From a phage: a stretch of DNA of 64,000 bases. The stretch is taken from the sequence record PZ386961.1; one strand, written 5' to 3'. Within the stretch, counting starts at the first letter, position 1. Each line of letters starts with the position of its first letter. Shown here piece by piece: positions 1 through 43,117 of this stretch. A program made the translations under genes and the position numbers. Below the pieces are notes generated by a model. It made no database searches, was not told the DNA's origin, and saw only the letters and a program-made list of their open reading frames with translations.

Positions 1-60
1 TGCTACGTCTTCTTTGTCAGTTGCAATCTGCAATAGTGTGGTTAATTCTACATGTTCCAT
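1..60 (-). CDS. hypothetical protein, N-terminal fragment (gene runs off window start)
   Basis: ATG at 60-58 preceded by the same promoter/leader cassette as neighbouring early genes; only 20 codons inside window. Confidence 0.3.
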   Translation of the reverse strand, partial: MEHVELTTLLQIATDKEDVA

Positions 61-124
61 TTGGAATCTCCTAGTTTAAGGACTTTACTTAGTGGGGAAG
101 GTCATTCCCTCCCCGTTGATTGAT

Positions 125-153
125 AATTTACAGACTTTTGATTGTTTCGTCAA
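125..153 (-). promoter_or_regulatory. sigma70-like promoter (TTGACG-17-TAAATT) with downstream leader hairpin (type A cassette)
   Basis: Minus-strand -35 TTGACG and -10 TAAATT with 17-bp spacer, followed by GGGGAGGG..CCTTCCCC hairpin and AGGAG RBS before ATG at 60. Confidence 0.45.
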
Positions 154-658
154 TATCTTTTTCAATATCTTTTAAAGTTTTTTCTAAGTTCTTGATATTG
201 AAGGATAAACCTTCACCGAGAGTCTTAGAATAGCCACTAGGACGTAAATCATAAAGGCTAATTTGTTCTACATTAAAGAGGCTGACCATTTCACCGCTTA
301 CATCATAAGCTATTGATACAGTATTTTCAGGGGCTTTATAGAACTTGTTTAAGGACTTGATAGAACGTTCATAAGCCATTTTATAACTATTTAAAAGGTC
401 TTTAACGTGGTTGCGAACGTTTTTACACTCATCTAAGTAAATACCTAAGAATAACGGTAATAACTCCGCTACGGCTTGCATAAAGTGAGAGACTACAACG
501 GTTGAAACATTGCGACGATGTACATAATAAGCCCCGTTTTCTGATTTAGTGATGGTTGCAAAGTGTACACCATTACAGCGGAACTCAAAGGTATCTTTAA
601 CAGGCTTAGACATGACACTATTTGAGCGAATGTAGTTGATAGCTTTGAACTTGTTCAT
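128..658 (-). CDS. hypothetical protein
   Basis: 176-aa ORF; conserved leader CCTAAACTGGAGATTCAAAA immediately 5' of ATG; no recognisable motif. Confidence 0.55.
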   Translation of the reverse strand: MNKFKAINYIRSNSVMSKPVKDTFEFRCNGVHFATITKSENGAYYVHRRNVSTVVVSHFMQAVAELLPLFLGIYLDECKNVRNHVKDLLNSYKMAYERSIKSLNKFYKAPENTVSIAYDVSGEMVSLFNVEQISLYDLRPSGYSKTLGEGLSFNIKNLEKTLKDIEKDIDETIKSL

Positions 659-858
659 TTTTGAATCTCCAGTTTAGGAAAGCATTATTGCTTGAGATAA
701 ACTATAAAGTTTTTGGAAGATGATTGCAAGCAATTTTTTAAGCTTATCTATAAAGAATCTTTTAAGTGAATCCCTTTTAGATAAACCCCCTCGAACAAAG
801 TTACCAATGTCAAGGGGTATTGTCAACACTTTTTTAAAAGTTTTTTGTAAGTTATTGA

Positions 859-1200
859 TTAACTGATGAATATTTTTTCAGGTTTTACATAGCTGATACG
901 CTGGCTTTTTAGCAGGTCATCCCAGATTAGCGCGGCAATATGAGAATAGCCGGATTCACGTAAAAGCTTCATTGTTTTACTTCTCGTTTCAAAACGGCTT
1001 GCGTAGTATTCACTGTTCAAGGTCGTTTTATTCCCTTCGTTATCTGTATGGATGATTTGCATCACTTGAAAGGGGCTTACATCCTCGCCTTTGTTCCACT
1101 GCTCAAAGTATTTTAGGCACTGCATAGGCGACATCTTATCACTAACCTGAGTTGACCAAGATGAGCCAGCTTTATCGGTAATTACGGTTACATAAGCCAT
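859..1200 (-). CDS. hypothetical protein
   Basis: 113-aa ORF preceded by type A promoter/leader cassette and AGGAG RBS. Confidence 0.55.
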   Translation of the reverse strand: MAYVTVITDKAGSSWSTQVSDKMSPMQCLKYFEQWNKGEDVSPFQVMQIIHTDNEGNKTTLNSEYYASRFETRSKTMKLLRESGYSHIAALIWDDLLKSQRISYVKPEKIFIS

Positions 1201-1265
1201 TTTTGAATCTCCTAGTTTAAGGACTTTATTTAGTGGGGAAGGTCATTCCCTCCCCGTTAATTGAC

Positions 1266-1294
1266 AATTTACAGATTTTTATCAGGCTTGTCTA
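1266..1294 (-). promoter_or_regulatory. sigma70-like promoter (TAGACA-17-TAAATT), type A cassette
   Basis: Minus-strand -35/-10 hexamers with 17-bp spacer upstream of leader hairpin and gene 859..1200. Confidence 0.45.
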
Positions 1295-1525
1295 GTCTTT
1301 TTCAATGATAATTTCATATTGACCATCAACACTGTCGAAATAGATTCCATCGTCATCTTCTGTCTTAAAGTAGCATTGAATATCATCACTGGCGGGATAG
1401 TCTTGCCTTGCTATCTGGCAAACTTGAATAGCATTTTCTTTACTTCCTGTAAACTCTTCAAGCCCTTTAAAGTCACATGAATGGCCATTACAAAGAGAAA
1501 GGATGAGGTAAATGGTTGTAAGCAT
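1292..1525 (-). CDS. hypothetical small protein with hydrophobic N-terminus
   Basis: 77-aa ORF, N-terminal hydrophobic segment MLTTIYLILSLC. Confidence 0.45.
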   Translation of the reverse strand: MLTTIYLILSLCNGHSCDFKGLEEFTGSKENAIQVCQIARQDYPASDDIQCYFKTEDDDGIYFDSVDGQYEIIIEKD

Positions 1526-1587
1526 GTTTTAAGTCCTCTAAATGGCCCTGTACGGGCCTTAAGTTGGAAATTGGTGCTTTGTATTGG

Positions 1588-2151
1588 TTAGCCTAAAAAG
1601 TCTCTTAGATTGCGTTCTGTGAGGCTGTTAGTAATTTTGTCCAGTAGGTCACAGTACACGGAGCTATCACTGCTATTCTGTACAATTTTTGCAATACTCA
1701 ACAAATCATCGTCAATATAGCCCAAATTGCGGTTAGTTGTATCAGGTACAAAGAAAGGCGCATACATCGCACTAAATTTCGCGGAGTGAATACCAACAAT
1801 CCAGTCTTTATCAAAGTAACCTGTAAAGCTGGCAATTTCGCTCATGTTGTCACAAGAATAATCATCCTCGAGTTCTTCCTCTGGTATATCCATTTCAATA
1901 ACAATCACTTCTTGCGTTTCCATTTGGAAAGCTGCCGTGATAAGCCCCGACTCTAAGGCGTTTTGAATGCAGCGTTCACGGATATAAGGGGCTTCCTCAT
2001 CCTCCAGACATTCCGTTTTGATAACCTTATTCATTGGGTAAACGTATAAACAATCATCCATGTAGGAGCAGTTCCATATTCCGTCCGGCTTATCGCCACC
2101 ATTCAGCATGTTTACAAAGTTTTTCAGAGTAGTGCCGTGATAGCATTTCAT
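1588..2151 (-). CDS. hypothetical acidic protein
   Basis: 187-aa ORF; conserved leader CCTAAACTGGAGATTCTAAA before ATG. Confidence 0.55.
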   Translation of the reverse strand: MKCYHGTTLKNFVNMLNGGDKPDGIWNCSYMDDCLYVYPMNKVIKTECLEDEEAPYIRERCIQNALESGLITAAFQMETQEVIVIEMDIPEEELEDDYSCDNMSEIASFTGYFDKDWIVGIHSAKFSAMYAPFFVPDTTNRNLGYIDDDLLSIAKIVQNSSDSSVYCDLLDKITNSLTERNLRDFLG

Positions 2152-2236
2152 TTTAGAATCTCCAGTTTAGGATTTAGTGGTAAAGTTCTTTATCTGGGGC
2201 TTACTCTATCGAACTATAAGCCCCTTGTAAAGTACT
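2152..2236 (-). promoter_or_regulatory. type B intergenic element: AAAGTACTTT palindrome + GGGGCTTA..TAAGCCCC hairpin + conserved translation-initiation leader
   Basis: Near-identical copies at 2947..3030, 4016..4103 and 4395..4480. Confidence 0.45.
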
Positions 2237-2440
2237 TTATTTGTTATTTTTGACAACTTTTAAAACTGCAAGGTAACCTAAGCAATAAGAATCACCGAAG
2301 AGAGTCCTACCCATGAAAGAATCCTCTTTAATATCCTTTGCAGTGACAGTTTTCTCTACGCCGTGGGAAAGGACTACATCACCAACTTTAATGTCTTTGA
2401 TGTGCGTGGTTTCAATGGTTAAACCGTTGATAATAGCCAT
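2237..2440 (-). CDS. hypothetical protein
   Basis: 67-aa ORF with type A cassette upstream. Confidence 0.5.
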   Translation of the reverse strand: MAIINGLTIETTHIKDIKVGDVVLSHGVEKTVTAKDIKEDSFMGRTLFGDSYCLGYLAVLKVVKNNK

Positions 2441-2504
2441 TTTGAATCTCCTAGTTTAAGGACTTTATTTAGTGGGGAAGGTTGTTCCCTCCCCGTTGAT
2501 GTGT

Positions 2505-2533
2505 AATTTAATCTATCTAAAAACCAGTGTCAA
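2505..2533 (-). promoter_or_regulatory. sigma70-like promoter (TTGACA-17-TAAATT), type A cassette
   Basis: Perfect -35 TTGACA on minus strand, 17-bp spacer, -10 TAAATT, then leader hairpin and AGGAG RBS. Confidence 0.5.
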
Positions 2534-2541
2534 CAAAATTT

Positions 2542-2946
2542 TTAGAGTTCTGCATAAATTGCATCACAGACATCACGAAAATCATGATTTGTCAAATTAC
2601 GTTGCAACCAAGTGGCGAAGAAATCAGCGATTGCAAAATTAGCGTCATACTCGACGGATAGCCATACTTTCACGGCAAATCGAAACATTTTTAAATCAAG
2701 TTCTTTATTCATTACCTTTGATTTGCCTAACATGTCAGCCATTTCATATTGCGCACCGTCTAGCGTGATACCTGCTGCAACGTCAGCCAATGAACTTTTT
2801 ACTTTTTCAACGTCTAAGATAACGCTTTGAATCTTTCCGATAATGTTGTGCAATGTTTCATCTGGTGCTGATGACGTGATAACATTGATTCGATTAACGG
2901 TCAAACGTGCTTTTAAGATTGATAATTCACGATTATTGATAGCCAT
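2542..2946 (-). CDS. hypothetical protein
   Basis: 134-aa ORF; conserved leader CCTAAATTGGAGATTCAAAA before ATG. Confidence 0.55.
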   Translation of the reverse strand: MAINNRELSILKARLTVNRINVITSSAPDETLHNIIGKIQSVILDVEKVKSSLADVAAGITLDGAQYEMADMLGKSKVMNKELDLKMFRFAVKVWLSVEYDANFAIADFFATWLQRNLTNHDFRDVCDAIYAEL

Positions 2947-3030
2947 TTTTGAATCTCCAATTTAGGATTAGTGGTAAAGCTCTTTATCTGGGGCTATCTT
3001 ATCAGCTTGATAACCCCCCTGTAAAGTACT
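2947..3030 (-). promoter_or_regulatory. type B intergenic element (palindrome + GC hairpin + conserved leader)
   Basis: GTAAAGTACTTTAC palindrome at about 3011-3026 adjacent to GGGG..CCCC hairpin. Confidence 0.4.
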
Positions 3031-3303
3031 TTACACTAAATGCAGTTTTTTACCTTTTACTATAATGTAACTCGATGCACTATTGCTGCAAACATCCTGA
3101 TAAATTCTGCGCAAACGTCCTTCATAGTATACTTTCCAGCTAGTTGGAATCTTTTTGCCGTATCCGGTAGCAGTTTTTTGGAGTCCTGCGACTTGCCAAT
3201 CTAAGATATGTTGCTCAGCCTGTAAATCCTCAAAGTGCATCACACCGTCTACATAGTGACGTAGAGTGACATTTAAAGTGCGGCCATTGTTAGTAGTATA
3301 CAT
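3031..3303 (-). CDS. hypothetical protein
   Basis: 90-aa ORF with type A cassette upstream. Confidence 0.5.
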   Translation of the reverse strand: MYTTNNGRTLNVTLRHYVDGVMHFEDLQAEQHILDWQVAGLQKTATGYGKKIPTSWKVYYEGRLRRIYQDVCSNSASSYIIVKGKKLHLV

Positions 3304-3367
3304 TTTAGAATCTCCTAGTTTAAGGACTTTATTTAGTGGGGGAGATTATTGCTCCCCGTTGATGAGT

Positions 3368-3396
3368 AATTTAATCTATCTAAAAATCAGTGTCAA
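3368..3396 (-). promoter_or_regulatory. sigma70-like promoter (TTGACA-17-TAAATT), type A cassette
   Basis: Same architecture as 2505..2533; hairpin GGGGGAG..CTCCCC in leader. Confidence 0.5.
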
Positions 3397-3725
3397 CAGT
3401 TTTGTTTTCGTTTGCTCAACTCTTGAACAATTACAGTATGATAGTCTTTTAAGTCACTAATATTTAAAGCATTTATCAGAGAATTATAATCATCGACTAA
3501 TTGAAAATCATCTTTGAAAATGTCGCTGATTTGATAAGTTCTCGCCCTGAATCTGAAGCTCATTTCTAACCGCTTTAATTGTTCATCGCTCAACCGCTCT
3601 AGAAAGCTCATTACAAGGCTATTGCTAACCTGTTGTGTGATTGCCTTATTTGCTAGATTATAGGCTTTATATGCCTTATAGAGCGCGAAAATGGCAATGA
3701 TTGCAGTGATACCAGTCATTAACAT
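3393..3725 (-). CDS. hypothetical membrane protein
   Basis: 110-aa ORF; N-terminal transmembrane-like segment GITAIIAIFALY. Confidence 0.5.
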   Translation of the reverse strand: MLMTGITAIIAIFALYKAYKAYNLANKAITQQVSNSLVMSFLERLSDEQLKRLEMSFRFRARTYQISDIFKDDFQLVDDYNSLINALNISDLKDYHTVIVQELSKRKQNC

Positions 3726-4015
3726 GGTGCTTCCTCTTTACGTGACACTTTGCCATTTACAGTTATCTCATAAGAATCTAGTAAATCGCTTTTAGATTTG
3801 ACAGGACTTTTAAGAGTATCATCGTAGATATTGACTTGCAATACAGGTTTTTTATACTCCCTGCAACTATTCCATAAGCAAATCACTACACGACGACCTT
3901 TTATTTTGCCGTGTAACCATTCCATAACATCATGACTATTCCTTGATGTTTCAATAAAATCAATTTTGTTAAGTAACTTGCTTAGATTTTCACGGACTTT
4001 ATTTGATAGTTTCAT
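3719..4015 (-). CDS. hypothetical protein
   Basis: 98-aa ORF; conserved leader before ATG. Confidence 0.5.
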   Translation of the reverse strand: MKLSNKVRENLSKLLNKIDFIETSRNSHDVMEWLHGKIKGRRVVICLWNSCREYKKPVLQVNIYDDTLKSPVKSKSDLLDSYEITVNGKVSRKEEAPC

Positions 4016-4103
4016 TTTTGAAACTCCAGTTTAGGATTAGTGGTAAAGCTCTTTATCTGGGGGCTTAAGGTATCAACTTTTAAGCCCCTTGTAAAGTACT
4101 TTA
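4016..4103 (-). promoter_or_regulatory. type B intergenic element
   Basis: GGGGGCTTAAGG..TTTTAAGCCCC hairpin followed by TTGTAAAGTACTTTA. Confidence 0.4.
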
Positions 4104-4394
4104 TCAGTTAATTTTCAGCTTTGCATGACTTCTCATTGTACGAATTGGAGATGTTAAGGCTACGCGTCTAATATATGCCTTTTTCGTGTATACATTTGTC
4201 TTTCCGATAGTGTTTACACATGTAAAAAGATTTATTGGTGAATTTTTTAACTTCAACTGTTTATCAGCCTTCACACCCCATCTTACAGCAGATTGTTTTC
4301 CGTTGTCAACCACTTTCCCGCCTAACTTTTTCGCCATGATGCGAGCGTCATCACGAGTTTTTACAGGAATTACAACGTTTTTGATAGTAGCCAT
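4104..4394 (-). CDS. hypothetical basic protein
   Basis: 96-aa ORF; conserved leader before ATG. Confidence 0.5.
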   Translation of the reverse strand: MATIKNVVIPVKTRDDARIMAKKLGGKVVDNGKQSAVRWGVKADKQLKLKNSPINLFTCVNTIGKTNVYTKKAYIRRVALTSPIRTMRSHAKLKIN

Positions 4395-4480
4395 TTTTGA
4401 ATCTCCAATTTAGGATTTAGTGGTAAAGCTCTTTATCTGGGGGCTTACTTTATCGAACTATAAGCCCCTTGTAAAGTACT
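4395..4480 (-). promoter_or_regulatory. type B intergenic element
   Basis: Almost identical to 2152..2236. Confidence 0.4.
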
Positions 4481-4687
4481 TTATTTGTCGTAGTAGTAAA
4501 TCGCTGTCTGCCTTGTAAATTTCTTAGTGTTTCTTGTAAGGTAACAATCAGATTTGATTGCCGTTTCTACATAGTTGCAATAGTCAGCTTCTGATATTCT
4601 GGACCATACGCCACAGATTTGCATGTAAAAACGTTTTCCCTTTGTGTTAACGTTAGTTGTAACTATCAATTCACGGTAGTAAGTCAT
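4481..4687 (-). CDS. hypothetical protein
   Basis: 68-aa ORF, overlaps next gene by 4 nt (coupled). Confidence 0.45.
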   Translation of the reverse strand: MTYYRELIVTTNVNTKGKRFYMQICGVWSRISEADYCNYVETAIKSDCYLTRNTKKFTRQTAIYYYDK

Positions 4688-4875
4688 TTTTTAATACTCC
4701 ACTTTTCGAACAATTCAGCAGGGAAACGTTCGCTATATCCTTTTAGGGAAAATGTACCGTCTTCGTGGATAGCTTCCACCTGATAAACCTTGTAAGAGCG
4801 AATAGTTAACATTTTGTAAGAGTGTTCATATTTTACGTTAACCTCATCGCCAACTTTGATTTTTCTTGATGCCAT
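4684..4875 (-). CDS. hypothetical protein
   Basis: 63-aa ORF; RBS CTGGAG; promoter at 4926..4954. Confidence 0.5.
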   Translation of the reverse strand: MASRKIKVGDEVNVKYEHSYKMLTIRSYKVYQVEAIHEDGTFSLKGYSERFPAELFEKWSIKK

Positions 4876-4925
4876 TTTTAGATTCTCCAGTTTAGGAAGT
4901 GGGCTTGTTTGCCCGTCTGATGCAA

Positions 4926-4954
4926 ATATTACGTAAACCTGTTTTGTGTGTCAA
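4926..4954 (-). promoter_or_regulatory. sigma70-like promoter (TTGACA-17-TAATAT)
   Basis: Minus-strand hexamers with 17-bp spacer, followed by GGGC..GCCC leader hairpin. Confidence 0.5.
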
Positions 4955-5128
4955 CAGTTTTTATTAAATATTTTTGTAAGGTTGGGAAAGGAACGGGCGC
5001 GCGCGACTACCACAAAACAGAACTACAATCAAGAATTATTTTTCAATCCGCTACAAATTTTTCTGTTGACTTTTATTTCCAGATGTGGTAGCCTTGTGAG
5101 AAATGGCGACATCCCCACCTGCACCCAC

Positions 5129-5311
5129 CTACCTGCACAATTCTAAAATGATTTTTCTTGCCCGACCTGAGCGGGGTCTGCACGTTTTGAAAATGAAAAA
5201 GCTCTTTGGAGATTACCTGCACAGTTTGAAAATGAATTTTCTCTTTGGAGTTCAAAATTCTCTCTACAGATTTCTCTACAGAACTCTACCTGCACAATCC
5301 TAAAATGAAAA
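5129..5311. repeat. four iteron-like direct repeats (about 22 bp, TACCTGCACA-N-T-AAAATGA core) in a 505-bp noncoding region
   Basis: Copies at about 5129, 5176, 5214 and 5287; the region also holds a GCGCGCGCG run and tandem TCTCTACAGA. Confidence 0.6.
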
Positions 5312-5381
5312 AGCCCTCCTTACCTGAAAAATTTACCAGATAAGTAAGGCTTAATCTATTGTGAATATTCTACAGAGTTTC

Positions 5382-6167
5382 TTAGTTCTTTGCGTCTAAG
5401 AAGGTAACTTCTGATGATGAGAAGACCGTCTCGATATCCTCATCAGTTCTTGCATAGATATATGTATCTGCATCACTGCCAAATGTTACTGCAATCCTGT
5501 GATTGCTCTTCGACAGGTGGGTAACTAGAGCGTTACTTAGAGACATCTTTTCAACCGGAGGGTTACTTTGATGTATCTTACCTTTTCTTCGTCTGAAGAG
5601 GGTAACTGCATTATCCGTGAACACAACTACACCTGCAAAGTATTCTGGTTCACAGTAGTTCTTCCAACCTGAGCGTAACTTGTGGTACATCTCTCCTTCA
5701 TAGACATATAGATAAACATCTACACTCTTCATCACCTGATTGATGATAACTGTGACGGCTTGAGGGTCCAACCCACCGATACCTGCACCAATCATAGGTA
5801 AACCAACTTTCTTCAACTGATTAACTTCACAGTATCTGTTAAGCTGTTTCAAAGATGACTCTAAAGCACTGTATCGGGCATCTTTACCAGTCTTAAGCTG
5901 AGTGTAAAGGTTAGCTATACGACCTTGTTTTAAACGTGCTACAGAGAAATTACCCAGTAAATTTTCACAGGGTTTGTGTCCTATACCACCTGCATACAGA
6001 TAAACTTCTGTATCGGTCTCATATGCTTTTGGGTAAAGTTTAGAAATCTTGTCAGCGATACCTGCACCCATTAAATTCATACAGTTGCAACCGTGACCGA
6101 TGATGTCAAACTTACCTTTATCAAATGCGGCAAAGATATCACCATTAATTATTTTTACAATACCCAT
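5382..6167 (-). CDS. macrodomain protein, TARG1/OARD1/Poa1p-like (ADP-ribose hydrolase family) with unknown C-terminal domain
   Basis: Motifs NGDIF, DIIGHGCNCMNLMGAGIA and GLPMIGAGIGGLD match TARG1 GDLF / AHCISEDCRMGAGIA / PRIGCGLD; RBS GGGAGAG; 261 aa. Confidence 0.7.
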   Translation of the reverse strand: MGIVKIINGDIFAAFDKGKFDIIGHGCNCMNLMGAGIADKISKLYPKAYETDTEVYLYAGGIGHKPCENLLGNFSVARLKQGRIANLYTQLKTGKDARYSALESSLKQLNRYCEVNQLKKVGLPMIGAGIGGLDPQAVTVIINQVMKSVDVYLYVYEGEMYHKLRSGWKNYCEPEYFAGVVVFTDNAVTLFRRRKGKIHQSNPPVEKMSLSNALVTHLSKSNHRIAVTFGSDADTYIYARTDEDIETVFSSSEVTFLDAKN

Positions 6168-6368
6168 TTAACATCTCTCCCAAGATTCTTTGTCTTCTGA
6201 AGGTTTTACACGTTGTCCTTCGTGGTCTACCCAGATGCACCCACAACCTTCACAGATTACTGGCATTGCATAACCAGCTTTAAAGTCATCTTCAGTGATA
6301 AGACCTTTTAAGTCACCTGTATCACGTCCGAACATTTCGATAGAACAGTCTTTGCAGAAGTCAGCCAT
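6168..6368 (-). CDS. small Cys-rich (zinc-ribbon-like) protein
   Basis: Internal start MADFCKDC with AAGAGG RBS; CxxC...CEGCGC; stop abuts the macrodomain gene start. Confidence 0.45.
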   Translation of the reverse strand: MADFCKDCSIEMFGRDTGDLKGLITEDDFKAGYAMPVICEGCGCIWVDHEGQRVKPSEDKESWERC

Positions 6369-6588
6369 TGATAATTGCCTCTTGAATGATGATACCTTTA
6401 CCACAACGGCTTTTAAAGTCTTCCAACGGTTGGGAGATGAAGCCACGCAAGCAATCACTAAACACTAAGTTTTTCCTGTAGGCTATCACATCGTTTGCTG
6501 TAAACGGGATGACTTCATTTCTTCCAATGAATACTGCTGACCGGATGAGTTTCCGTGTCTTTTTATCTCTGGCTAGAATTACTCTCAT
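6361..6588 (-). CDS. hypothetical protein
   Basis: 75-aa ORF in tightly packed operon. Confidence 0.45.
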   Translation of the reverse strand: MRVILARDKKTRKLIRSAVFIGRNEVIPFTANDVIAYRKNLVFSDCLRGFISQPLEDFKSRCGKGIIIQEAIING

Positions 6589-6889
6589 AGTTTACCTTCT
6601 CAGTTAGCTCATATAAATCAACATGCTCAATACTATCAATGTTGATATCAATCTTTTTGAAGCGTTCTATCACTTCGTTGTCAGTCATCCATATCAGACA
6701 CCAATGATTCTGAATGGATTCTTCAAGAAGGTCAACACAATCTTTAAAAGTTTTTGTATCACTTCTCGTTCCAACTACTGCGATTGTTCCATATAGCCAC
6801 CCACCATTGCCATAAGATACTTGCGCTACGCCAACTTCTTTACCTTTCTCGTAGTAAACGGCTACAAAGTCTCTTCCATTAATCTGCAT
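6563..6889 (-). CDS. hypothetical protein
   Basis: ORF 6563..6928; start moved to internal ATG at 6889, which has an AGAGGA RBS. Confidence 0.45.
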   Translation of the reverse strand: MQINGRDFVAVYYEKGKEVGVAQVSYGNGGWLYGTIAVVGTRSDTKTFKDCVDLLEESIQNHWCLIWMTDNEVIERFKKIDINIDSIEHVDLYELTEKVNYESNSSQR

Positions 6890-7193
6890 TTGTAAGTTCC
6901 TCTGTTGGTAATTCACCATTTTCAGCAAAGTATTGAAGGTACGGCAACAACTCTTTTACCTGTTCTTGATTGAGCTTCATTCTTTGATTACCTACAAAAT
7001 CTTTACCAACTAATGCTGGGATATCAAGTGTTTTCCAGCCACCATCTAGGTACTGAACAGAGACCTCTTTAGCACCTAACCAAATACATGGTTCATATGA
7101 TGAACTCTCTTGTAAAGTACAAATTTCCCCTTTAGCATCTTTAAATTCTGCATAAGAAAATCCACGATTGGTTGGCTGGAATTGCATAATCAT
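6879..7193 (-). CDS. hypothetical protein
   Basis: 104-aa ORF; true start may be the third codon (GAGGA RBS). Confidence 0.45.
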   Translation of the reverse strand: MIMQFQPTNRGFSYAEFKDAKGEICTLQESSSYEPCIWLGAKEVSVQYLDGGWKTLDIPALVGKDFVGNQRMKLNQEQVKELLPYLQYFAENGELPTEELTNAD

Positions 7194-7462
7194 TTCCTCG
7201 TTTTAAGAACTGCTAAGATTTCTTTAGAATCTGGTAAGAACCATGTGTAGTGATTCTCTTTGATTTCTGGATGAGTGTCAACCTTTATTTTGCACTCTTT
7301 ACCAACATGCTTAAGCTGTGCTGTGATACCTTGCATAAAGATGTGACACATTACATTATCCATAATCGTAGGTAAGAAATCAATCCTCATGTAAGTATCT
7401 TTCGGTCTCGGTAGAAGTAAGTAACCTTCTGTGTAGAAAGTTTCATCATTACTTTGTGTCAT
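7190..7462 (-). CDS. hypothetical protein
   Basis: 90-aa ORF, 4-nt overlap with downstream gene. Confidence 0.45.
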   Translation of the reverse strand: MTQSNDETFYTEGYLLLPRPKDTYMRIDFLPTIMDNVMCHIFMQGITAQLKHVGKECKIKVDTHPEIKENHYTWFLPDSKEILAVLKTRK

Positions 7463-7728
7463 TACTGCTTATTCCCTAATAAAATCATATCAATCAAGTT
7501 GTTAGCTTTCATAGTACACTGATAGTACCCGTCACGATAAAACTCAATGGCTTCTGATAAGTCTGCACCAGTGTTACCTTTGACAGCATATCTTACATCT
7601 TCCTGAGTGTACTTATCACTTTCACTTACTTGGGAGTTTTTGAATGTATTGCTCACTTTGTTCGTTGAACACCCTGACATAGTTATCAGTAACACAAACA
7701 TTATAAAACTCTGGCTTAGTCTTTTCAT
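7462..7728 (-). CDS. putative lipoprotein, o-spanin (Rz1)-like
   Basis: Signal peptide with lipobox-like ITMSGC; overlaps the 3' part of the upstream membrane protein gene in another frame. Confidence 0.4.
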   Translation of the reverse strand: MKRLSQSFIMFVLLITMSGCSTNKVSNTFKNSQVSESDKYTQEDVRYAVKGNTGADLSEAIEFYRDGYYQCTMKANNLIDMILLGNKQ

Positions 7729-7969
7729 ATGTCAGTACCTCTTTTGTGTGCTTATTCTTAGCAAGCACGTCTTTCAAATCATTTTTGTAATTGGTGCTCA
7801 GTGTAGCTAATCCTTCCTGATAAGCATCTTTAGCAACACTTATTAGCTTCTGGTTGTTTAGCTCAGTTTCAGCAACTTGGTAGTCTCTGTAAGAGTATCC
7901 TCCCCAGACACCTGCCCCAACTAAGAAAACAATTATGAAAGTAGCTTGACAGAACTCTTTAAATGTCAT
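7622..7969 (-). CDS. putative i-spanin (Rz)-like membrane protein
   Basis: N-terminal TM segment ATFIIVFLVGAGVWGGY then charged/coiled region; overlapping lipoprotein gene embedded at 3' end. Confidence 0.4.
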   Translation of the reverse strand: MTFKEFCQATFIIVFLVGAGVWGGYSYRDYQVAETELNNQKLISVAKDAYQEGLATLSTNYKNDLKDVLAKNKHTKEVLTYEKTKPEFYNVCVTDNYVRVFNEQSEQYIQKLPSK

Positions 7970-7986
7970 TTAACAATCTCCTGAAA

Positions 7987-8010
7987 TGAAAAAGGCTCCC
8001 GAAGGAGCCT
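7987..8010 (-). terminator. rho-independent terminator (GGCTCC-CGAA-GGAGCC + U-run)
   Basis: Perfect 6-bp GC stem, tetraloop, T-run on minus strand. Confidence 0.6.
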
Positions 8011-9719: not shown

Positions 9720-9780
9720 TGGTTCTCCTGTTTAGTTTATCGTGACATCAATTATACAGCACTCTGCACAAAATACAAAT

Positions 9781-9806
9781 AAAAAAGGCCGCCGAAGCAG
9801 CCTTTT
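9781..9806 (-). terminator. rho-independent terminator downstream of rIIB
   Basis: GC hairpin GGCCGC-CGAA-GCAGCC flanked by A6 and T4 runs. Confidence 0.5.
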
Positions 9807-13897: not shown

Positions 13898-13904
13898 AAT
13901 CTTC

Positions 13905-13927
13905 TCCAGAAATTAAAAAGGCTCCCG
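13905..13927 (-). terminator. rho-independent terminator after NAMPT-like gene
   Basis: GGCTCC-CGTA-GGAGCC hairpin followed by T5 on minus strand. Confidence 0.6.
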
Positions 13928-13950
13928 TAGGAGCCTCTTATCATATACTT

Positions 13951-29527: not shown

Positions 29528-30527
29528 AAGTAAAATCGTCTTTCTTATTTCTTTCCTGATAAGCTAAGAAGAAGTGTTGCTGCATTAGTTCTAAAGGTGT
29601 TCTGGTAATTGTTTGACCATCCCACGAGACATAAGTGTAGGACTCTTTCTTAGCATAAAGTTCATAGATTGCATCAAGACACTCTTTGTAAGTAGTTTTA
29701 CCTTCAAGGGCTTTCATTACAGCAACCTTACCAACGCCCTTTAAACCAAAATAGTTATCTGCATTATCACCAGCCACAGCTTGATAACAAAGAAATTTAA
29801 AACCTACACCAACTGTCTTCTTAGCTTTTGGTGTTGATTTTATTGGGCAATCCCAAATTTCACCAACGTTGTTATCAGCAATAAAAATTAAAGGTGATTT
29901 TTCATAGGTCATATCAATGCAGTAAGTACCTTCAGCTTGTCGAAGGTCTTTATCAATACTCATTAAGGCAGCCTTTTTACCCATCTTTTCAGCTTTAGCA
30001 ATAACGATAGAGTCAGCTTCAAATCCATCAAGAATTAATTTGAACTCTGGTCTTGACAGAAGGTATTCACGACAAGCGACTAAGTGTGTTGGTGTGACAG
30101 CATCTTTACGATTACCTTGATATTGGTGCTCAAGACCTTTAATGTCTTTATGTTTATGCACACCCTTCTCTGTTAAATAACCTACCCAAGTTCTTTCTTT
30201 ACCAACAATCTTAAGCCATTCCTGAAGCACCTGTTGAGTAGCCATGATAGCTTCTTTTTCACTCTTAGCTTCTTTCCAAGTTTGTCTTTCCCATTCATCT
30301 TCATCAAATGTCAGGCCAAGCTCTTCCACAAGGATTCTCTGGTCTGCTAACCATCTTGCAGCATCTTTCGCATTATCAAATGGTTCAGATTCTTCTGCTG
30401 TAAGTTTATTGACGTATTTATATTTTGCTTTCTCAACTACACAAGAACCTTTATAGGCAATACTGTCAGAGTCAATAAAAACATGTGTAACTGAATCGGG
30501 AAGTTTTGTTAATGTGTACTTCTCCAT
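29481..30527 (-). CDS. flap endonuclease / 5'-3' exonuclease (RNase H-like)
   Basis: Motifs GFEADS and H3TH block AVAGDNADNYFGLKGVGKVAV, resembling T5 D15/T4 RNase H. Confidence 0.8.
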   Translation of the reverse strand: MEKYTLTKLPDSVTHVFIDSDSIAYKGSCVVEKAKYKYVNKLTAEESEPFDNAKDAARWLADQRILVEELGLTFDEDEWERQTWKEAKSEKEAIMATQQVLQEWLKIVGKERTWVGYLTEKGVHKHKDIKGLEHQYQGNRKDAVTPTHLVACREYLLSRPEFKLILDGFEADSIVIAKAEKMGKKAALMSIDKDLRQAEGTYCIDMTYEKSPLIFIADNNVGEIWDCPIKSTPKAKKTVGVGFKFLCYQAVAGDNADNYFGLKGVGKVAVMKALEGKTTYKECLDAIYELYAKKESYTYVSWDGQTITRTPLELMQQHFFLAYQERNKKDDFTFDKYGWTPNVNSTNS

Positions 30528-30589
30528 TATGGCTCTCCATATGAAAAAGCCCCATACTAAGTACAGGGCTTTAAAGTAACTTTTAGAGA

Positions 30590-31447
30590 TTAGTCTTCTG
30601 TATCGAAGTCTTCATCTTCTTCGTCATCTGGGTCTGGCAAATCTTCATCATCACCATCATCAGAATCATTCGAAGGTTTGTGGTCTTTTGCATCTTCTTC
30701 AGTGATTTCACCGTTATCTTCGACACCATCAAGACCAAGCATAGCCAGTTCATCTTCATCCAGTTCAGGTTCACCGTTAGCACCGTTACCACCAGTGTAA
30801 GGCACAAGAGTATCAATGATAAACTGTTCCTGAATAGGTTTTGTCAGAACATTGTTCTCAAAAGTATAGAAGTGAGTAGAAAGAATCACACTACCAAAAG
30901 AACCGTTACCAACTGCAATATCTGGATGAATTACATCATAGTTCTTATCATCTTCATGTTTATCAGATGCTTGAGCTTTGATTTTCTTCATCGGCTGCTT
31001 AACAGCTACACGCTTACCATTTACTTCTTCAATAAGCATAACAGGGAATGACTGTTTAGCTGTCCATACAGCACCATCTTTATAAGCTGCTGCACGACTT
31101 ACTTTCAAGATGTAGTAAGTGTCTGCTTCAAAAGGTGGTTTACAACCAAACTTCTCTTCGAAGTCGTCTGCATCAACTGCTTCAGTAGTAACTTTATCCC
31201 AACCTTCTGGGTTTTTCTTAGACTTAGTAAACTCTTTAAACAGTTTGTTACCGTCTTCTGCCAGAATTGATACGCTGTAGTTACAGTCTTTGCCTGGGAA
31301 TTTCTTATCAATAGACTTACCTTTTCCCGGACGTGGTGAAGTGTTCAGGTAATAAAACCAGACATCTTTCAGCAGGTATCGCAGAGTTTGGCGTTCAGTG
31401 CCATTGTATTTCTCTACCGGAGCTTTCATTTTAACAACTTTAGACAT
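30590..31447 (-). CDS. putative single-stranded DNA-binding protein with acidic C-terminal tail
   Basis: 285 aa; C-terminus DDGDDEDLPDPDDEEDEDFDTED as in T7 gp2.5-type SSBs; sits in replication cluster; own promoter. Confidence 0.45.
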   Translation of the reverse strand: MSKVVKMKAPVEKYNGTERQTLRYLLKDVWFYYLNTSPRPGKGKSIDKKFPGKDCNYSVSILAEDGNKLFKEFTKSKKNPEGWDKVTTEAVDADDFEEKFGCKPPFEADTYYILKVSRAAAYKDGAVWTAKQSFPVMLIEEVNGKRVAVKQPMKKIKAQASDKHEDDKNYDVIHPDIAVGNGSFGSVILSTHFYTFENNVLTKPIQEQFIIDTLVPYTGGNGANGEPELDEDELAMLGLDGVEDNGEITEEDAKDHKPSNDSDDGDDEDLPDPDDEEDEDFDTED

Positions 31448-31483
31448 TATTTAAACCTCTATCTCAATTTATGAAGAGTACCA

Positions 31484-31512
31484 ATTCTAGTTTGTTGATA
31501 CTCTATTGTCAA
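31484..31512 (-). promoter_or_regulatory. sigma70-like promoter (TTGACA-17-TAGAAT)
   Basis: Near-consensus hexamers on minus strand upstream of putative SSB gene. Confidence 0.55.
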
Positions 31513-31519
31513 ACATTAA

Positions 31520-31669
31520 TTACTGGAAGTTGTGCTTATCTTTAGAAGCTGCTTTACGTGCAGTTTTTCCAGTTCTTACACGCTTCTCTTCATAGTATTT
31601 TGCTGGTTTTCCAGCAGTGGCTTTTAAGGAATCCCCAAAAACTTTTTCAAATGCTTTAGAGTGTTTCAT
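31520..31669 (-). CDS. hypothetical small basic protein (49 aa)
   Basis: Not in track; GGAG RBS 7 nt upstream of ATG. Confidence 0.25.
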   Translation of the reverse strand: MKHSKAFEKVFGDSLKATAGKPAKYYEEKRVRTGKTARKAASKDKHNFQ

Positions 31670-31953
31670 GATATTCTCCGATATACTTGATATTCAAACA
31701 CATTTTCTTTTATTACAAACAGCCAACCAATATTATGTTTAGGTATAGTAATAGTGACTGTGATTATGCTGTGATGGAACTTTTCTTCTACCTCAACGCC
31801 TCCATCACATTTCATGTAGAGCATTCTATAGAACCTATCAACCTTTGTCAAACACTCTTCCTGAAATTCATTTAAACTTTTTTCTTCAAAGAAGGGTATA
31901 AGCCCCTCTCTTTTATAACTATCACTCAGTTTCGAATGGGCAGTCATCTGCAT
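31666..31953 (-). CDS. hypothetical protein (uncertain)
   Basis: 95-aa ORF overlapping primase 3' end; may be spurious or start internally. Confidence 0.25.
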   Translation of the reverse strand: MQMTAHSKLSDSYKREGLIPFFEEKSLNEFQEECLTKVDRFYRMLYMKCDGGVEVEEKFHHSIITVTITIPKHNIGWLFVIKENVFEYQVYRRIS

Positions 31954-33913
31954 CCTCGCTTAATACAGGTGGAATCATTGAGCTTTGACGCTGTTCTTCA
32001 GTATAGACTTCACCAGTCTCACGGTCAAACACTTCATCCTCATAATGAGGTAAAGAGTCGTCATAATGGTCTTCAGCTTCACCAATACCAAACTGTTGAC
32101 GGATATTTTCTGCTGCACCATCAATGTCAACACCACACCCAGAAGCTTTGATAAGACGCCCTGTGTCTGGATTGTACCAAGTATGACCAGCAATACCTGT
32201 TGACTTACCATGACGACGACACTTAGTTAACTTTATTTTTGTCAAGTTTTTCTTAACAGGGTCTGGGTCAACCTTGTTACGCATTAACAGAATGTTGTTC
32301 ATGGAAATCTGGAAATACGCACCAGAGCCTTTAATATCCTCTTCAGAGATGTCTCCACCTTCAGAGTTGGCTTTCTGACCACCTGCACTCTTACGAACGT
32401 GACAGACGTTAACCTGTGCATACTGGTAGCGTTTGCAACGACGCAATAGCTCAGACAAAACTTCCTCTTCATCCGTATCTGAACGTGACAGAGCCAACGT
32501 AATAGGGTCAAGAATAATAATCTTACAGTCTAAACTGTTAACAAGATAGTCAACAAATTCCAGCAGGTTGTCTTGGTCAATCGCCCCTTGATGGTCTACG
32601 ATGTGGATACGACGACCTTTAGATAGTTCTGCGTGTGCTTCCTTTAATTCATCCCAATCACGTTCGTCATAAGGAATCTCAGAAATCTGTTTGCTCAGGT
32701 GAATTGCACAGAGCATCTCCATCAACTCTTCATAGGTATCTTCTACCGGAATTACACCAATATTGTAATCGGTTTCCTTCCAAGCTGAATAAATCATCTC
32801 ACGAGTGTAAGCTGATTTACCTACTGAAGATGGTGCTGCCAGAGTTGTAATCTCTCCTAAACCATAACCACCGTAAGTTAGTCTGTTCAAATCCCCGAAA
32901 GATTCTGGGAAAGGAATCAAAGGAATCTGACCACGATTCTTCATTGCCTCAAAACCATCTGCAAAGTTCTTGATACCAGCAGGGCAATAACGAGGTGCGT
33001 TGTAGATACGCTGCTTAAATCCTTCCAGAACTGTATCTTTCTCTTTATAGAACTTTGTCCACCATTCGTTTAGGTCTTTTACACCCTCTGGATACTGGAA
33101 TAAACGAACCTTCTCAATAGGTAGGATACCAGCAGCCTCTTTGGTAGCTTTAGCACCTGCTTCATCGTTATCAAAGCACAAGTAAATTTCATCAAATGAT
33201 GTAATGTACTGATAGTTATCTTTGATAGACTTAATGTTTGCACCTGACGGAACAGATACGTGACAGTAATTCTTACGACGAGACTTATCTTTAATCGCCA
33301 AAGAAGTCATGTAGATTGCTGTCGCACATTCCATCTCACCTTCCCAGATGAATAGACGGTTACCACCTTCTGGAGCAATCCATGAGCCGAACATTGCCAG
33401 TTCACCTTTAATGTCTCCAACACCACCAGAAAAGTCTTTTAGCTTACCTCGTAGGTGTTCTTTTGGATGGTCTTCTGGGTAACGGTGACGAACACGGTAG
33501 CCAACATGCTCTAGCTTGCCATCTTCATTGCGTTTGTAAGTTGGGTAGAAATGTGCGTCAATTTCACCGTCACTGTCAATGTCAACCTTGATACCCAAAC
33601 GCTCAAGAACTTTTGCAGGAATCTTCCTGTCTTTTAAGTCCATTGCTTCAAGGTTTTCTTTTACATCGTCTAAATCCATTCCACGGAAAGTACGGTTTTT
33701 ATTGTCTGGACCAGTAGAATAAGTGCTCACGATTTGTCCTTTATCAAAATCCCACTCTGGGAAACCTTTGTTACAACTAAAGCAAGTCATCGAATAAGAA
33801 TCATCGTCATGATGATAGATGGAACCAGCATCTGATGAACCACAACGTGGACATGCACAATGACCAATAAACTGACCAGCCTCTTTCAATTTACGACCTT
33901 TAGACATTAGCAC
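31922..33913 (-). CDS. bifunctional DNA primase/helicase (T7 gp4-like)
   Basis: N-terminal zinc ribbon CACPRCG...CFSCNKG; TOPRIM LCFDNDEAGAKA; Walker A AAPSSVGKSA; 663 aa. Confidence 0.85.
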   Translation of the reverse strand: MLMSKGRKLKEAGQFIGHCACPRCGSSDAGSIYHHDDDSYSMTCFSCNKGFPEWDFDKGQIVSTYSTGPDNKNRTFRGMDLDDVKENLEAMDLKDRKIPAKVLERLGIKVDIDSDGEIDAHFYPTYKRNEDGKLEHVGYRVRHRYPEDHPKEHLRGKLKDFSGGVGDIKGELAMFGSWIAPEGGNRLFIWEGEMECATAIYMTSLAIKDKSRRKNYCHVSVPSGANIKSIKDNYQYITSFDEIYLCFDNDEAGAKATKEAAGILPIEKVRLFQYPEGVKDLNEWWTKFYKEKDTVLEGFKQRIYNAPRYCPAGIKNFADGFEAMKNRGQIPLIPFPESFGDLNRLTYGGYGLGEITTLAAPSSVGKSAYTREMIYSAWKETDYNIGVIPVEDTYEELMEMLCAIHLSKQISEIPYDERDWDELKEAHAELSKGRRIHIVDHQGAIDQDNLLEFVDYLVNSLDCKIIILDPITLALSRSDTDEEEVLSELLRRCKRYQYAQVNVCHVRKSAGGQKANSEGGDISEEDIKGSGAYFQISMNNILLMRNKVDPDPVKKNLTKIKLTKCRRHGKSTGIAGHTWYNPDTGRLIKASGCGVDIDGAAENIRQQFGIGEAEDHYDDSLPHYEDEVFDRETGEVYTEEQRQSSMIPPVLSEDADDCPFETE

Positions 33914-34100: not shown

Positions 34101-34108
34101 TATCTCTT

Positions 34109-34852: not shown

Positions 34853-34867
34853 TTTATCTCCATTAAT

Positions 34868-34895
34868 TACTAAAAAGCCCCCAACTAAGGAGGCT
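34868..34895 (-). terminator. possible rho-independent terminator
   Basis: Imperfect hairpin AGCCCCC..GGAGGCT followed by U5 on minus strand. Confidence 0.35.
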
Positions 34896-34903
34896 TGTAA
34901 GAT

Positions 34904-42511: not shown

Positions 42512-43117
<606 letters not shown>

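What the first reader, a model, noticed from the sequence alone, without database searches (positions are those of the whole stretch)
61..3396. Reiterated type A cassette: sigma70-like promoter + G-rich leader hairpin + fixed translation-initiation region
At least four early genes (upstream regions 61-153, 1201-1294, 2441-2533, 3304-3396) are each preceded by the same module on the minus strand: a -35 (TTGACA/TAGACA/TTGACG), a 17-bp spacer, a -10 TAAATT, a GGGGAGGG..CCTTCCCC-type hairpin, then ...TAAACTAGGAGATTCAAAA-ATG. The module is conserved across unrelated coding sequences, implying duplication or convergence under one regulator. The hairpin in the 5' UTR is a candidate site for translational repression or RNase processing.
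Basis: seen in the sequence. Interest (0 to 1): 0.5.

Follow-up and report, generated by a model that had tools for sequence, protein, structure and literature searches.

The report
Reiterated early promoter–hairpin–RBS cassette (PeSL-like)
A Felix O1-like phage puts the same ~95-base "promoter + hairpin + ribosome-binding site" cassette in front of several unrelated small early genes, and related phages have gained, lost and swapped genes by recombining at these cassettes, as described so far only for T4-like phages.

Summary
The window is a Felixounavirus. It carries exactly four type A cassettes, all on the minus strand: 58-153, 1198-1294, 2438-2533 and 3301-3396. Each has a -35-like hexamer, a 17-bp spacer, TAAATT, a 10-nt gap, a G-rich/C-rich hairpin, an A/U-rich spacer, and then CCTTAAACTAGGAGATTCnAAA-ATG.

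Across 164 copies in related phages, six unrelated spacer families all keep a TTGnnn/TAGACA hexamer exactly 17 bp from the -10. The hairpin stays stable through 43 sequence variants. Unrelated hairpins sometimes replace it at the same position.

The cassettes occur only in one ~5-kb region of small genes of unknown function. That region is highly variable between relatives. Eleven of 12 rearrangement breakpoints fall in cassettes, and chimeric single cassettes mark deletions in Felix O1 and NJ12.

Best reading: these are the counterpart in Felix O1-like phages of the promoter-early stem-loop (PeSL) cassettes of T4-like phages. They act as portable host-sigma70 early expression units and as homology patches for gene shuffling.

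The hairpin's role is inferred. A 5'-terminal mRNA stabiliser is most likely, and an attenuator is the main rival. I found no evidence for a dedicated repressor.

The Felix O1 genome paper listed part of this sequence only as a "direct repeat". I rate it a new member of a known kind, of moderate interest.

The parts
58..153 (-). Type A cassette A1. -35 TTGACG at 153-148, -10 TAAATT at 130-125 (its TAA is the stop codon of the upstream gene 128..658), hairpin at 114-94, TIR at 80-61, ATG at 60-58. The downstream gene runs off the window start.
   Evidence: CM hit 102.6 bits; fold gives AAC plus an 8-bp hairpin, z -2.22
1198..1294 (-). Type A cassette A2. -35 TAGACA at 1294-1289 (contains the upstream stop TAG), -10 at 1271-1266, hairpin at 1255-1235, ATG at 1200-1198. 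Downstream gene is 859..1200 (113 aa).
   Evidence: CM hit 103.7 bits; fold z -2.05; deletion endpoint in Felix O1
2438..2533 (-). Type A cassette A3. -35 TTGACA at 2533-2528, -10 at 2510-2505, hairpin at 2494-2474 (loop AACAA), ATG at 2440-2438. Downstream gene is 2237..2440 (67 aa).
   Evidence: CM hit 100.2 bits; fold z -1.76; the other deletion endpoint in Felix O1
3301..3396 (-). Type A cassette A4. -35 TTGACA at 3396-3391 (contains the upstream stop TGA), -10 at 3373-3368, shorter hairpin GGGGAG-CAATAAT-CTCCCC at 3357-3339, ATG at 3303-3301. Downstream gene is 3031..3303 (90 aa).
   Evidence: CM hit 89.6 bits; fold z -1.18; its TIR flanks a 158-bp gene insertion in SME50, Shy and PK6
656..729 (-). 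Hairpin-less derivative of a type A cassette. TTGCAA at 729-724, 17-bp spacer, TATAGT at 706-701, TIR TAAACTGGAGATTCAAAA, ATG at 658-656. Most relatives have a full type A cassette (TAAATT plus hairpin) behind the same TTGCAA -35 at this position.
4873..4954 (-). Type C cassette, first of the array. TTGACA at 4954-4949, 17-bp spacer, TAATAT at 4931-4926, then an unrelated hairpin GGGC-AAACAA-GCCC (4914-4901) 11 nt after the -10, TIR, ATG at 4875-4873. Some relatives carry the type A hairpin behind this promoter.
2149..2240 (-). Type B cassette B1, a sister family sharing the TIR. TTTACA at 2231-2226, 17-bp spacer, TAGAGT at 2208-2203, both embedded in hairpin GGGGCTTA..TAAGCCCC, then AGATAAAG..TIR..ATG at 2151-2149.
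   Evidence: (D3-D5)
2944..3040 (-). Type B cassette B2. TTTACA/18/TAAGAT at 3025..2996, ATG at 2946-2944.
4013..4104 (-). Type B cassette B3. ATG at 4015-4013. A whole-cassette repeat here flanks a 516-bp gene insertion in relatives.
4392..4484 (-). Type B cassette B4. TTTACA/17/TAAAGT at 4475..4447, ATG at 4394-4392. It flanks a ~371-bp gene insertion in relatives.

Best explanation
The type A module is a portable early-expression cassette of the PeSL (promoter-early stem-loop) kind, here in a Felix O1-like phage.

1. **Promoter.** Host sigma70 RNA polymerase uses the -35/17 bp/-10 (TAAATT) promoter. This is shown at sequence and comparative level and is not measured.
2. **Transcript start.** The start is inferred at the A 8 nt after the -10. 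The mRNA would then begin AAC followed at once by a 5-8 bp G/C hairpin.
3. **Hairpin.** A hairpin 2-3 nt from the 5' end most likely protects the transcript from 5'-end-dependent decay (RppH/RNase E). On read-through transcripts the same hairpin sits just after the upstream cistron, where it can act as a 3' barrier or weak attenuator. Both roles are inferred.
4. **Translation.** An unstructured A/U-rich spacer and a standardised Shine-Dalgarno/ATG region then give uniform, strong translation of whatever gene follows. This is inferred.
5. **Recombination.** The ~95-nt unit is reiterated in direct orientation between unrelated small genes, so it serves as a homology patch. Recombination between cassettes deletes, inserts and re-partners genes and cassette sub-modules. 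The products are shown here by comparative genomics; the recombination process itself is not shown.
For: **Promoter.**
- All four copies are scanner hits.
- 162 of 164 cassettes have TTGACA, TTGCAA, TAGACA, TTGACG, TTGATT or TTGACT exactly 17 bp upstream of the -10. Spacers are unrelated between families.
- The -10 swaps only with TAGTAT, TAATAT or TATAGT, and with TAAAGT or TAGAGT in Mooglevirus.
- The 22 nt upstream of the -35 are 77% A+T.
- Felix O1 ORFs 21 and 22 (type A) and 16 and 20 (type B) peak at 5 min.

**Hairpin.**
- The gap between -10 and stem is an invariant 10 nt ending in ..CAAC.
- The 43 hairpin variants have a mean dG of -11.6 kcal/mol, against -8.6 for random variants with the same number of edits. 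37 of 42 are more stable than their simulated mean.
- 94.4% of cells are paired.
- Many G-U pairs make the sense strand the more stable one in 22 of 34 variants.
- Unrelated hairpins occupy the same slot.

**Region and shuffling.**
- Cassette elements occur only at 80.3-85.7 kb of an 87-kb relative, and only at 58-4954 of this window.
- Window 1-5000 is at least 80% covered in one place in 17 of 251 phage records, against 234 of 259 for a control region.
- 11 of 12 breakpoint clusters lie in cassettes that cover 20% of the region, P = 2e-7.
- Adjacent alignment pieces overlap by 25-100 nt, which is the repeated cassette.
- Felix O1 has one chimeric cassette (A3 promoter half plus A2's gene) in place of window 1261-2435.
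- NJ12 has an analogous chimera.
- The same gene family is found behind A, B or C promoters and either TIR type in different genomes.

**Spread.** The cassette occurs at 1403 places in 240 phage records and in none of 5,426 E. coli genomes.
Against: - No transcription start, half-life or reporter data exist for any Felixounavirus in the searched literature. The promoter, the +1 position and therefore the '5'-terminal' status of the hairpin are inferred.
- Formal covariation is not significant: the score is reached by 56 of 500 shuffles, and the arms always keep GGGGAGG/CCTCCCC polarity within the type A class.
- Type B cassettes carry their hairpin upstream of their own predicted start, so a 5'-stabiliser role cannot explain every hairpin in the array.
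- The hairpin is dispensable in at least one cassette (window 656-729).
- Breakpoints at gene boundaries are also what selection against gene disruption would leave, and nearly every intergenic space here is a cassette.
- Two type A genes of Felix O1 (ORFs 19 and 23) peaked at 25 min rather than 5 min.
Confidence: 0.7

Rival explanations
1. The hairpin is mainly a transcription attenuator or insulator, which is how the PeSL authors read their stem-loops. It would stop or dampen transcripts coming from the upstream cassette so that each gene is driven by its own promoter.
For: - Every intergenic space in the array has one G/C hairpin, whatever its position relative to the promoter. It is downstream of the -10 in types A and C and inside the promoter in type B.
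- This unifies all cassette types.
- A PeSL stem-loop reduced lacZ expression as strongly as rrnB T1 (PMC2839356).
Against: - No U-tract follows the stem; the sequence is CCCC-ACUAAAUAAAG.
- The terminator scan calls none of the cassettes.
- In type A the hairpin is predicted to lie inside its own transcript, so an efficient terminator would silence the gene it precedes.
Confidence: 0.25
2. The leader hairpin and/or the fixed TIR is the operator of a phage-encoded RNA-binding repressor or endoribonuclease (RegA- or RegB-like) that shuts off the early genes together.
For: - Sequence is conserved, not only structure. The arms keep GGGGAGG/CCTCCCC polarity without flips.
- The TIR is nearly invariant across unrelated genes.
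- GGAG occurs in both the stem and the Shine-Dalgarno sequence.
- A small stem (UCCU/AGGA) that pairs with the Shine-Dalgarno sequence shows perfectly linked insertions, 188:0:0:154.
Against: - Unrelated hairpins substitute at the same position, and one cassette lacks the hairpin.
- The hairpin is about 30 nt from the Shine-Dalgarno sequence.
- No RegA-, RegB- or other translational-repressor gene is annotated in a complete relative. This is weak evidence, because most genes there are hypothetical.
- There is no Rfam match.
- The stem is too short for RNase III.
Confidence: 0.1
3. The inverted repeat works at the DNA level. It would be a cruciform or protein-binding site that targets recombination, and it would have no role in the RNA.
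For: - Crossovers map inside the cassettes.
- The PeSL authors speculated that GGGG..CCCC could be a recombination-protein target.
Against: - Some indels are flanked by the TIR alone, with no hairpin in the repeat: the SME50_079 and HY02_016 insertions.
- G-T pairs make the structure strand-asymmetric and better on the mRNA-sense strand.
- No recombinase or integrase is annotated.
- Ordinary homologous recombination on 25-100 nt of identity is enough to explain the junctions.
Confidence: 0.1

Closest known systems
PeSL (promoter-early stem-loop) cassettes of T4-like phages RB49/phi1, T4/PST and KVP40/nt-1 (Arbiol et al. 2010, PMC2839356; Comeau et al. 2014, PMC4122927)
   Same: - Both are reiterated ~100-nt intergenic units.
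- Both contain an A/T-rich upstream tract, a sigma70-type promoter, a GGGG..CCCC stem-loop with G-T pairs, and the Shine-Dalgarno sequence plus start codon of the next gene.
- Both are confined to hyperplastic regions full of genes without known relatives.
- In both, indels between close relatives are bounded by cassettes and leave a chimeric cassette.
- One of the five PeSL subclasses also has the stem-loop downstream of the -10.
   Different: - The phage lineage differs: Ounavirinae (Felixounavirus, with cognate cassettes in Mooglevirus and Kolesnikvirus) rather than T4-like phages.
- I saw no obvious sequence similarity to the published PeSL descriptions. The PeSL sequences themselves are in figures that are not held, so this was not compared.
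- The stem starts a fixed 10 nt after the -10, so it is predicted to be inside the transcript (+4 to +24).
- The TIR is far more standardised and carries its own small stem that pairs with the Shine-Dalgarno sequence.
- Promoter, hairpin and TIR sub-modules are visibly re-assorted.
- Promoter, terminator and mini-circle activities were measured for PeSLs and not here.
5'-terminal stabilising stem-loops of E. coli mRNAs
   Same: Both are a stable hairpin predicted within 2-4 nt of the mRNA 5' end and followed by a single-stranded A/U-rich leader.
   Different: - The 5' end is not mapped here.
- The element is reiterated and sits on phage early genes.
- No decay data exist.
RNase III processing hairpins between T7 early genes
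   Same: Both are hairpins in each early intercistronic space of a lytic phage.
   Different: - T7 sites are about 20-bp interrupted duplexes on one long transcript from upstream promoters.
- Here the stems are 5-8 bp, and each unit has its own promoter.
Integron gene cassettes and phage 'morons'
   Same: Both involve small genes of unknown function that move as units together with expression signals.
   Different: - There is no integrase or attC.
- Unlike morons, the flanking regulatory sequence itself is the repeated homology.
- All units are co-oriented in one array.
Direct repeats listed in the Felix O1 genome paper (Whichard et al. 2010, PMC3185647)
   Same: The 39-bp repeat TTGACACTGGTTTTTAGATAGATTAAATTACACATCAAC (between genes 18/19 and 20/21) is the promoter half of type A. 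The 57-bp repeat is type B.
   Different: - The paper reports them only as direct repeats.
- They are not among its predicted promoters.
- It states that temporal regulation of transcription is unknown.

Membership tests
PeSL cassettes | Repeated motif contains a sigma70-consensus-like early promoter | tested here: met
   All four copies have -35/17/-10. Across 164 cassettes the mean match to TTGACA is 4.87/6 at spacing 17 only.
PeSL cassettes | A/T-rich tract upstream of the -35 | tested here: met
   The 22 nt upstream of the -35 are 77% A+T and 52% A.
PeSL cassettes | Stable stem-loop, typically polyG..polyC with G-T pairs, in or next to the promoter | tested here: met
   Stems are 5-8 bp with dG -6 to -15.6 kcal/mol in all variants. 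G-U pairs are common.
PeSL cassettes | Shine-Dalgarno sequence and start codon of the downstream gene at the 3' end of the unit | tested here: met
PeSL cassettes | Concentrated in hyperplastic regions among genes without known relatives | tested here: met
   The elements occur only in one ~5-kb region. That region is at least 80% covered in 17 of 251 records, against 234 of 259 for a control region. Its ten proteins fall in ten PHROGs of unknown function.
PeSL cassettes | Indels or replacements between relatives are bounded by cassettes and leave a chimeric cassette | tested here: met
PeSL cassettes | Stem-loop acts as a terminator or attenuator in vivo | not testable with these tools
   At sequence level there is no U-tract and no terminator-scan hit.
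PeSL cassettes | Strong promoter activity in reporter fusions; mini-circles from cassette-cassette recombination | not testable with these tools
   This needs experiments.
Intrinsic (rho-independent) terminator | G/C hairpin followed directly by a U-run | tested here: not met
   The stem is followed by ACTAAATAAAG. None of the cassettes appears in the terminator scan.
RNase III processing site (T7 early type) | About two helical turns (~20 bp) of duplex | tested here: not met
   Stems are 5-8 bp.
5'-terminal mRNA stabiliser hairpin | Hairpin within about 2-4 nt of the real 5' end | tested here: inconclusive
   The fixed 10-nt gap from -10 to stem predicts +1 at the A 8 nt after the -10 and a 3-nt 5' tail. 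No transcription start has been mapped.
Any curated RNA family (Rfam 15) | Match at or above the gathering score | tested here: not met
   Only three sub-threshold chance hits at 1-5400, and none on a type A cassette.
Integron-type cassette array | Integrase plus attC recombination sites | tested here: not met
   No integrase or recombinase is annotated in a complete relative.

The most novel reading that the evidence does not exclude
Felix O1-like phages (Ounavirinae) run an integrase-free gene-cassette system. Standardised promoter-hairpin-TIR linkers, conserved in architecture from Felixounavirus to Mooglevirus and Kolesnikvirus, would be the dedicated substrates for turnover of small accessory genes. 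The leader hairpin, together with the covarying small stem that pairs with the Shine-Dalgarno sequence, would be read by an unidentified phage factor that shuts off the whole early set together.
Probability: 0.12. Interest if true: 0.65.

Novelty: new member of a known kind. Interest (0 to 1): 0.4.

Why it matters
- **Early promoters.** The Felix O1 genome paper stated that the phage's temporal control of transcription was unknown. This work supplies a concrete, testable set of host-type early promoters for a widely used typing and biocontrol phage group.
- **PeSL beyond T4.** If the comparison holds, PeSL-type modular shuffling is not peculiar to T4-like phages. It would be a recurrent way for large lytic phages to exchange accessory genes without breaking expression.
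- **Practical uses.** The cassettes mark safe insertion points for engineering. They also provide ready-made expression units of about 95 nt.
- **Annotation.** They explain why this region assembles and aligns poorly between close relatives.

Tried and rejected
- **Rfam scan of 1-5400 at a permissive threshold.** Only three sub-threshold chance hits, none on a type A cassette.
- **Formal covariation on 150 model-aligned cassettes.** 94.4% of cells are paired, but this is no better than shuffles (80/500 for cells paired, 56/500 for the covariation score), so structure is not proven this way. I used an edit-matched stability simulation instead.
- **Within-genome homogenisation (concerted evolution).** Paralogues in the same genome are 86.9% identical, non-orthologous copies in different genomes 87.1%, and orthologous copies 90.7%. 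There is no genome-specific signal.
- **Transcription-start or transcriptome data for Felix O1-like phages.** None found. The query was too loose to be useful.
- **Papers printing the cassette sequences.** Only the Felix O1 genome paper does. Other genome papers give only generic promoter counts.
- **Host origin.** No match in 5,426 complete E. coli genomes.
- **A cognate regulator.** The annotation of a complete relative shows no RegA, RegB, sigma or anti-sigma gene, but most genes there are hypothetical.
- **Intrinsic terminator and RNase III readings.** Rejected on sequence: there is no U-tract and the stem is too short.
- **18-mer hits on IMG/VR contigs L048, L051 and L054.** The covariance model does not match them, so I treated them as chance.

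Full report
**Identity of the window.** Bases 1-8000 match about 250 Felix O1-like phages (Felixounavirus, Ounavirinae) at about 90% identity, for example E. coli phage SME50 and Salmonella phage PK6. In this part of the window all genes lie on the minus strand. In Felix O1 coordinates it corresponds to the small genes downstream of rIIA/rIIB and a phosphatase gene.

- Four copies sit at 58-153, 1198-1294, 2438-2533 and 3301-3396 on the minus strand.
- Each has a -35-like hexamer (TTGACG, TAGACA, TTGACA, TTGACA), a 17-bp spacer and TAAATT.
- Then come 10 nt ending in AAC, a G-rich/C-rich hairpin, ACTAAnTAAAGTCC, and TTAAACTAGGAGATTCnAAA-ATG.
- Neither the TIR nor the hairpin pattern is expected even once by chance.
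- A covariance model of the unit finds exactly these four in 64 kb, at 90-104 bits.
- The ten full-length proteins encoded among these cassettes (131-4394) fall in ten different PHROGs of unknown function. The gene after cassette A1 runs off the window and was not scanned.

**Surroundings.**
- The same region holds a second family, type B, at 2149-2240, 2944-3040, 4013-4104 and 4392-4484. Its TTTACA/17-18/-10 promoter lies inside a GGGGCTTA..TAAGCCCC hairpin.
- A type C unit at 4873-4954 has TTGACA/17/TAATAT followed by a GGGC..GCCC hairpin.
- A hairpin-less unit at 656-729 has TTGCAA/17/TATAGT.
- All of these share the TIR.
- In a complete 87-kb relative, every TIR, type A hairpin and type B hairpin lies between 80.3 and 85.7 kb. 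In the window they lie only between 58 and 4954.

**Evidence that the upstream half is a promoter.** I collected 164 cassettes carrying the type A hairpin, from nine GenBank relatives and 45 IMG/VR stretches.
- 162 of them have TTGACA (41), TTGCAA (40), TAGACA (29), TTGACG (23), TTGATT (15) or TTGACT (14) exactly 17 bp upstream of the -10. They fall in six families whose spacers are unrelated.
- Mean identity to TTGACA is 4.87/6 at spacing 17 and 0.8-1.75 at spacings 12-16 and 18-22.
- The -10 is TAAATT in 149 cassettes and otherwise TAGTAT, TAATAT or TATAGT. Mooglevirus uses TAAAGT, TAGAGT or TAATAT.
- The tract upstream of the -35 is 77% A+T.
- Felix O1 RT-PCR found ORFs 16, 20, 21 and 22 of this region maximal at 5 min, but 19 and 23 maximal at 25 min (PMC3185647).

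**The hairpin.**
- The gap between -10 and stem is always 10 nt and ends in ..CAAC. With the usual sigma70 geometry, +1 falls on the A 8 nt after the -10. The RNA would then start AAC followed by the stem. This step is inference.
- Folding the predicted leaders gives the hairpin in every copy. z-scores are -2.2, -2.05, -1.76 and -1.18 on the sense strand, against -0.6, -1.1, -0.3 and -1.1 on the antisense strand.
- Among 43 distinct hairpin sequences, the non-consensus ones keep a mean dG of -11.6 kcal/mol, against -8.6 for random variants with the same number of edits. 37 of 42 are more stable than their simulated mean.
- G-U pairs are frequent, so the sense strand folds better in 22 of 34 variants.
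- Formal covariation is not significant. Within the type A class the arms never flip.
- At class level, unrelated hairpins occupy the same slot: GGGC..GCCC behind a type A promoter, the type A hairpin behind the type C promoter, and GGGGC..GCCCC, GGGA..TCCC and GNRA-looped versions in Mooglevirus.
- One cassette in this window has no hairpin at all (656-729).
- No U-run follows the stem, and the terminator scan does not call it.
- There is no Rfam match.

**The cassettes are recombination linkers.**
- Window 1-5000 is at least 80% covered in a single place in only 17 of 251 phage records, and it matches 1079 places. A control region (30001-35000, replication genes) is covered in 234 of 259 records with 262 places.
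- When the window is aligned to nine relatives, 11 of 12 breakpoint clusters within 1-5000 fall in cassettes. Cassettes occupy 20% of that stretch (P = 2e-7). The twelfth cluster lies at a TIR-like gene start.
- Adjacent alignment pieces overlap by 25-100 nt of query. This is the signature of a repeat flanking each indel.
- Felix O1 lacks window 1261-2435 (three genes). It carries one cassette with A3's promoter half joined to A2's gene.
- NJ12 and SLAM_phiST56 lack two other genes and carry an analogous chimera.
- SME50, Shy and PK6 have an extra 52-codon gene inserted between the A4 cassette and its gene, with the TIR duplicated on both sides.
- Across genomes, one gene family can sit behind A, B or C promoters and either TIR type.
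- Caveat: nearly all intergenic DNA here is cassette, so selection against gene disruption would also place breakpoints there. The flanking repeats and the chimeric junctions are the stronger argument.

**Comparison with what is known.**
- The anatomy and behaviour match the PeSL cassettes of T4-like phages. These have a sigma70 early promoter with an A/T-rich upstream tract, a GGGG..CCCC stem-loop with G-T pairs in one of five positions (including downstream of the -10), and a Shine-Dalgarno sequence plus ATG. They sit in hyperplastic regions and bound indels (PMC2839356; PMC4122927).
- All six sequence-testable PeSL features are met here. The measured activities (terminator, promoter strength, mini-circles) cannot be tested with these tools.
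- None of the 15 papers that mention PeSLs concerns Felix O1-like phages.
- The only paper that prints these sequences lists them as 'direct repeats' and calls temporal regulation unknown.
- Cognate cassettes exist in other Ounavirinae genera: Mooglevirus and, with diverged sequence, Kolesnikvirus. The type A model itself does not match Kolesnikvirus.
- The cassette occurs at 1403 places in 240 phage records and nowhere in complete E. coli genomes.

**Mechanism and confidence.**
- I put about 0.7 on the overall reading: a host-promoter early-expression cassette that doubles as a recombination linker.
- Within that reading, the hairpin's job is open. A 5'-terminal stabiliser best fits the fixed position just after the predicted +1 and the lack of a U-tract.
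- An attenuator or 3'-barrier role is the main rival (about 0.25). It alone explains why type B also carries one hairpin per intergenic space.
- A dedicated repressor or RNase target (about 0.1) and a purely DNA-level role (about 0.1) are not excluded.

**Verdict.** The feature is real and reiterated, and it has been largely overlooked in the literature on this phage group. It belongs to a kind already described in T4-like phages. I rate it a new member of a known kind, with interest 0.4.

Noticed in passing
window 2149-2240, 2944-3040, 4013-4104, 4392-4484 (minus strand); L057 10793-10877, 11731-11815, 13193-13277, 14593-14655: The type B cassette has its -35 (TTTACA) and -10 inside the hairpin, so its own transcript should start just after the stem. 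The stem shows true compensatory changes: GGGGCTTA/TAAGCCCC against GGGGTTATC/GATAGCCCC within the genus, and GGTGTTTA/TAAGCACC in the Erwinia phage (Kolesnikvirus). The following AGATAAAGAGCTTT is conserved across genera.
   Followed up: partly
window 61-80, 1201-1221, 2441-2460, 3304-3324 and the other TIRs; L057 TIRs: The Shine-Dalgarno sequence always faces a complementary CCU 3-6 nt upstream, giving a weak 3-4 bp stem. CCT-TAAACT-AGG and CC-TAAACT-GG occur 188 and 154 times with no mixed form. Kolesnikvirus has CCTTATAAAGG and CCTCAAAGAGG. The linkage spans only 6 nt, so this is suggestive and not proof.
   Followed up: partly
window 656-729 (minus strand): This cassette keeps the TTGCAA -35 that relatives have at this position but carries TATAGT and no hairpin. 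The same allele occurs in IMG/VR locus L035. The hairpin is therefore dispensable for this gene.
   Followed up: partly
window 5150-5330 (minus strand); L057 9328-9475: Four ~26-nt repeats (TTTTCATTTTnnnAnTGTGCAGGT) lie between the terminator after the phosphatase gene and the first (type C) promoter. A similar four-repeat array sits at the same place in the Erwinia phage. It could be a regulator-binding or origin-like array; the function is unknown.
   Followed up: no
window 1544-1558 (minus strand); L058 about 4385-4400: The one intergenic space without a promoter (between genes 1588..2151 and 1292..1525) still has a hairpin, GGCCC-gtaca-GGGCC, just before the Shine-Dalgarno sequence. Mooglevirus has GCCCC-gcaca-GGGGC at the same place, which is a compensatory swap.
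   Followed up: no
window 58-4954: Cassette types largely alternate along the array: C, B, B, A, B, A, B, A, hairpin-less, A. Neighbouring units therefore rarely share a full-length repeat. This might limit single-gene deletions.
   Followed up: no
window 42170-43828: A separate family of four 104-nt direct repeats (61-73% identity) lies here, with associated AAAGGTCTTTAAAGAGGGTCTTTTA motifs (families D1, D9, D12). I did not examine it.
   Followed up: no
window 7977-8010, 9770-9803, 13903-13936: Three near-identical canonical terminators (GGCTCC-TTCG/TACG-GGAGCC plus a T-run) are reused in the region. They correspond to t2 and t5 of the Felix O1 paper.
   Followed up: no
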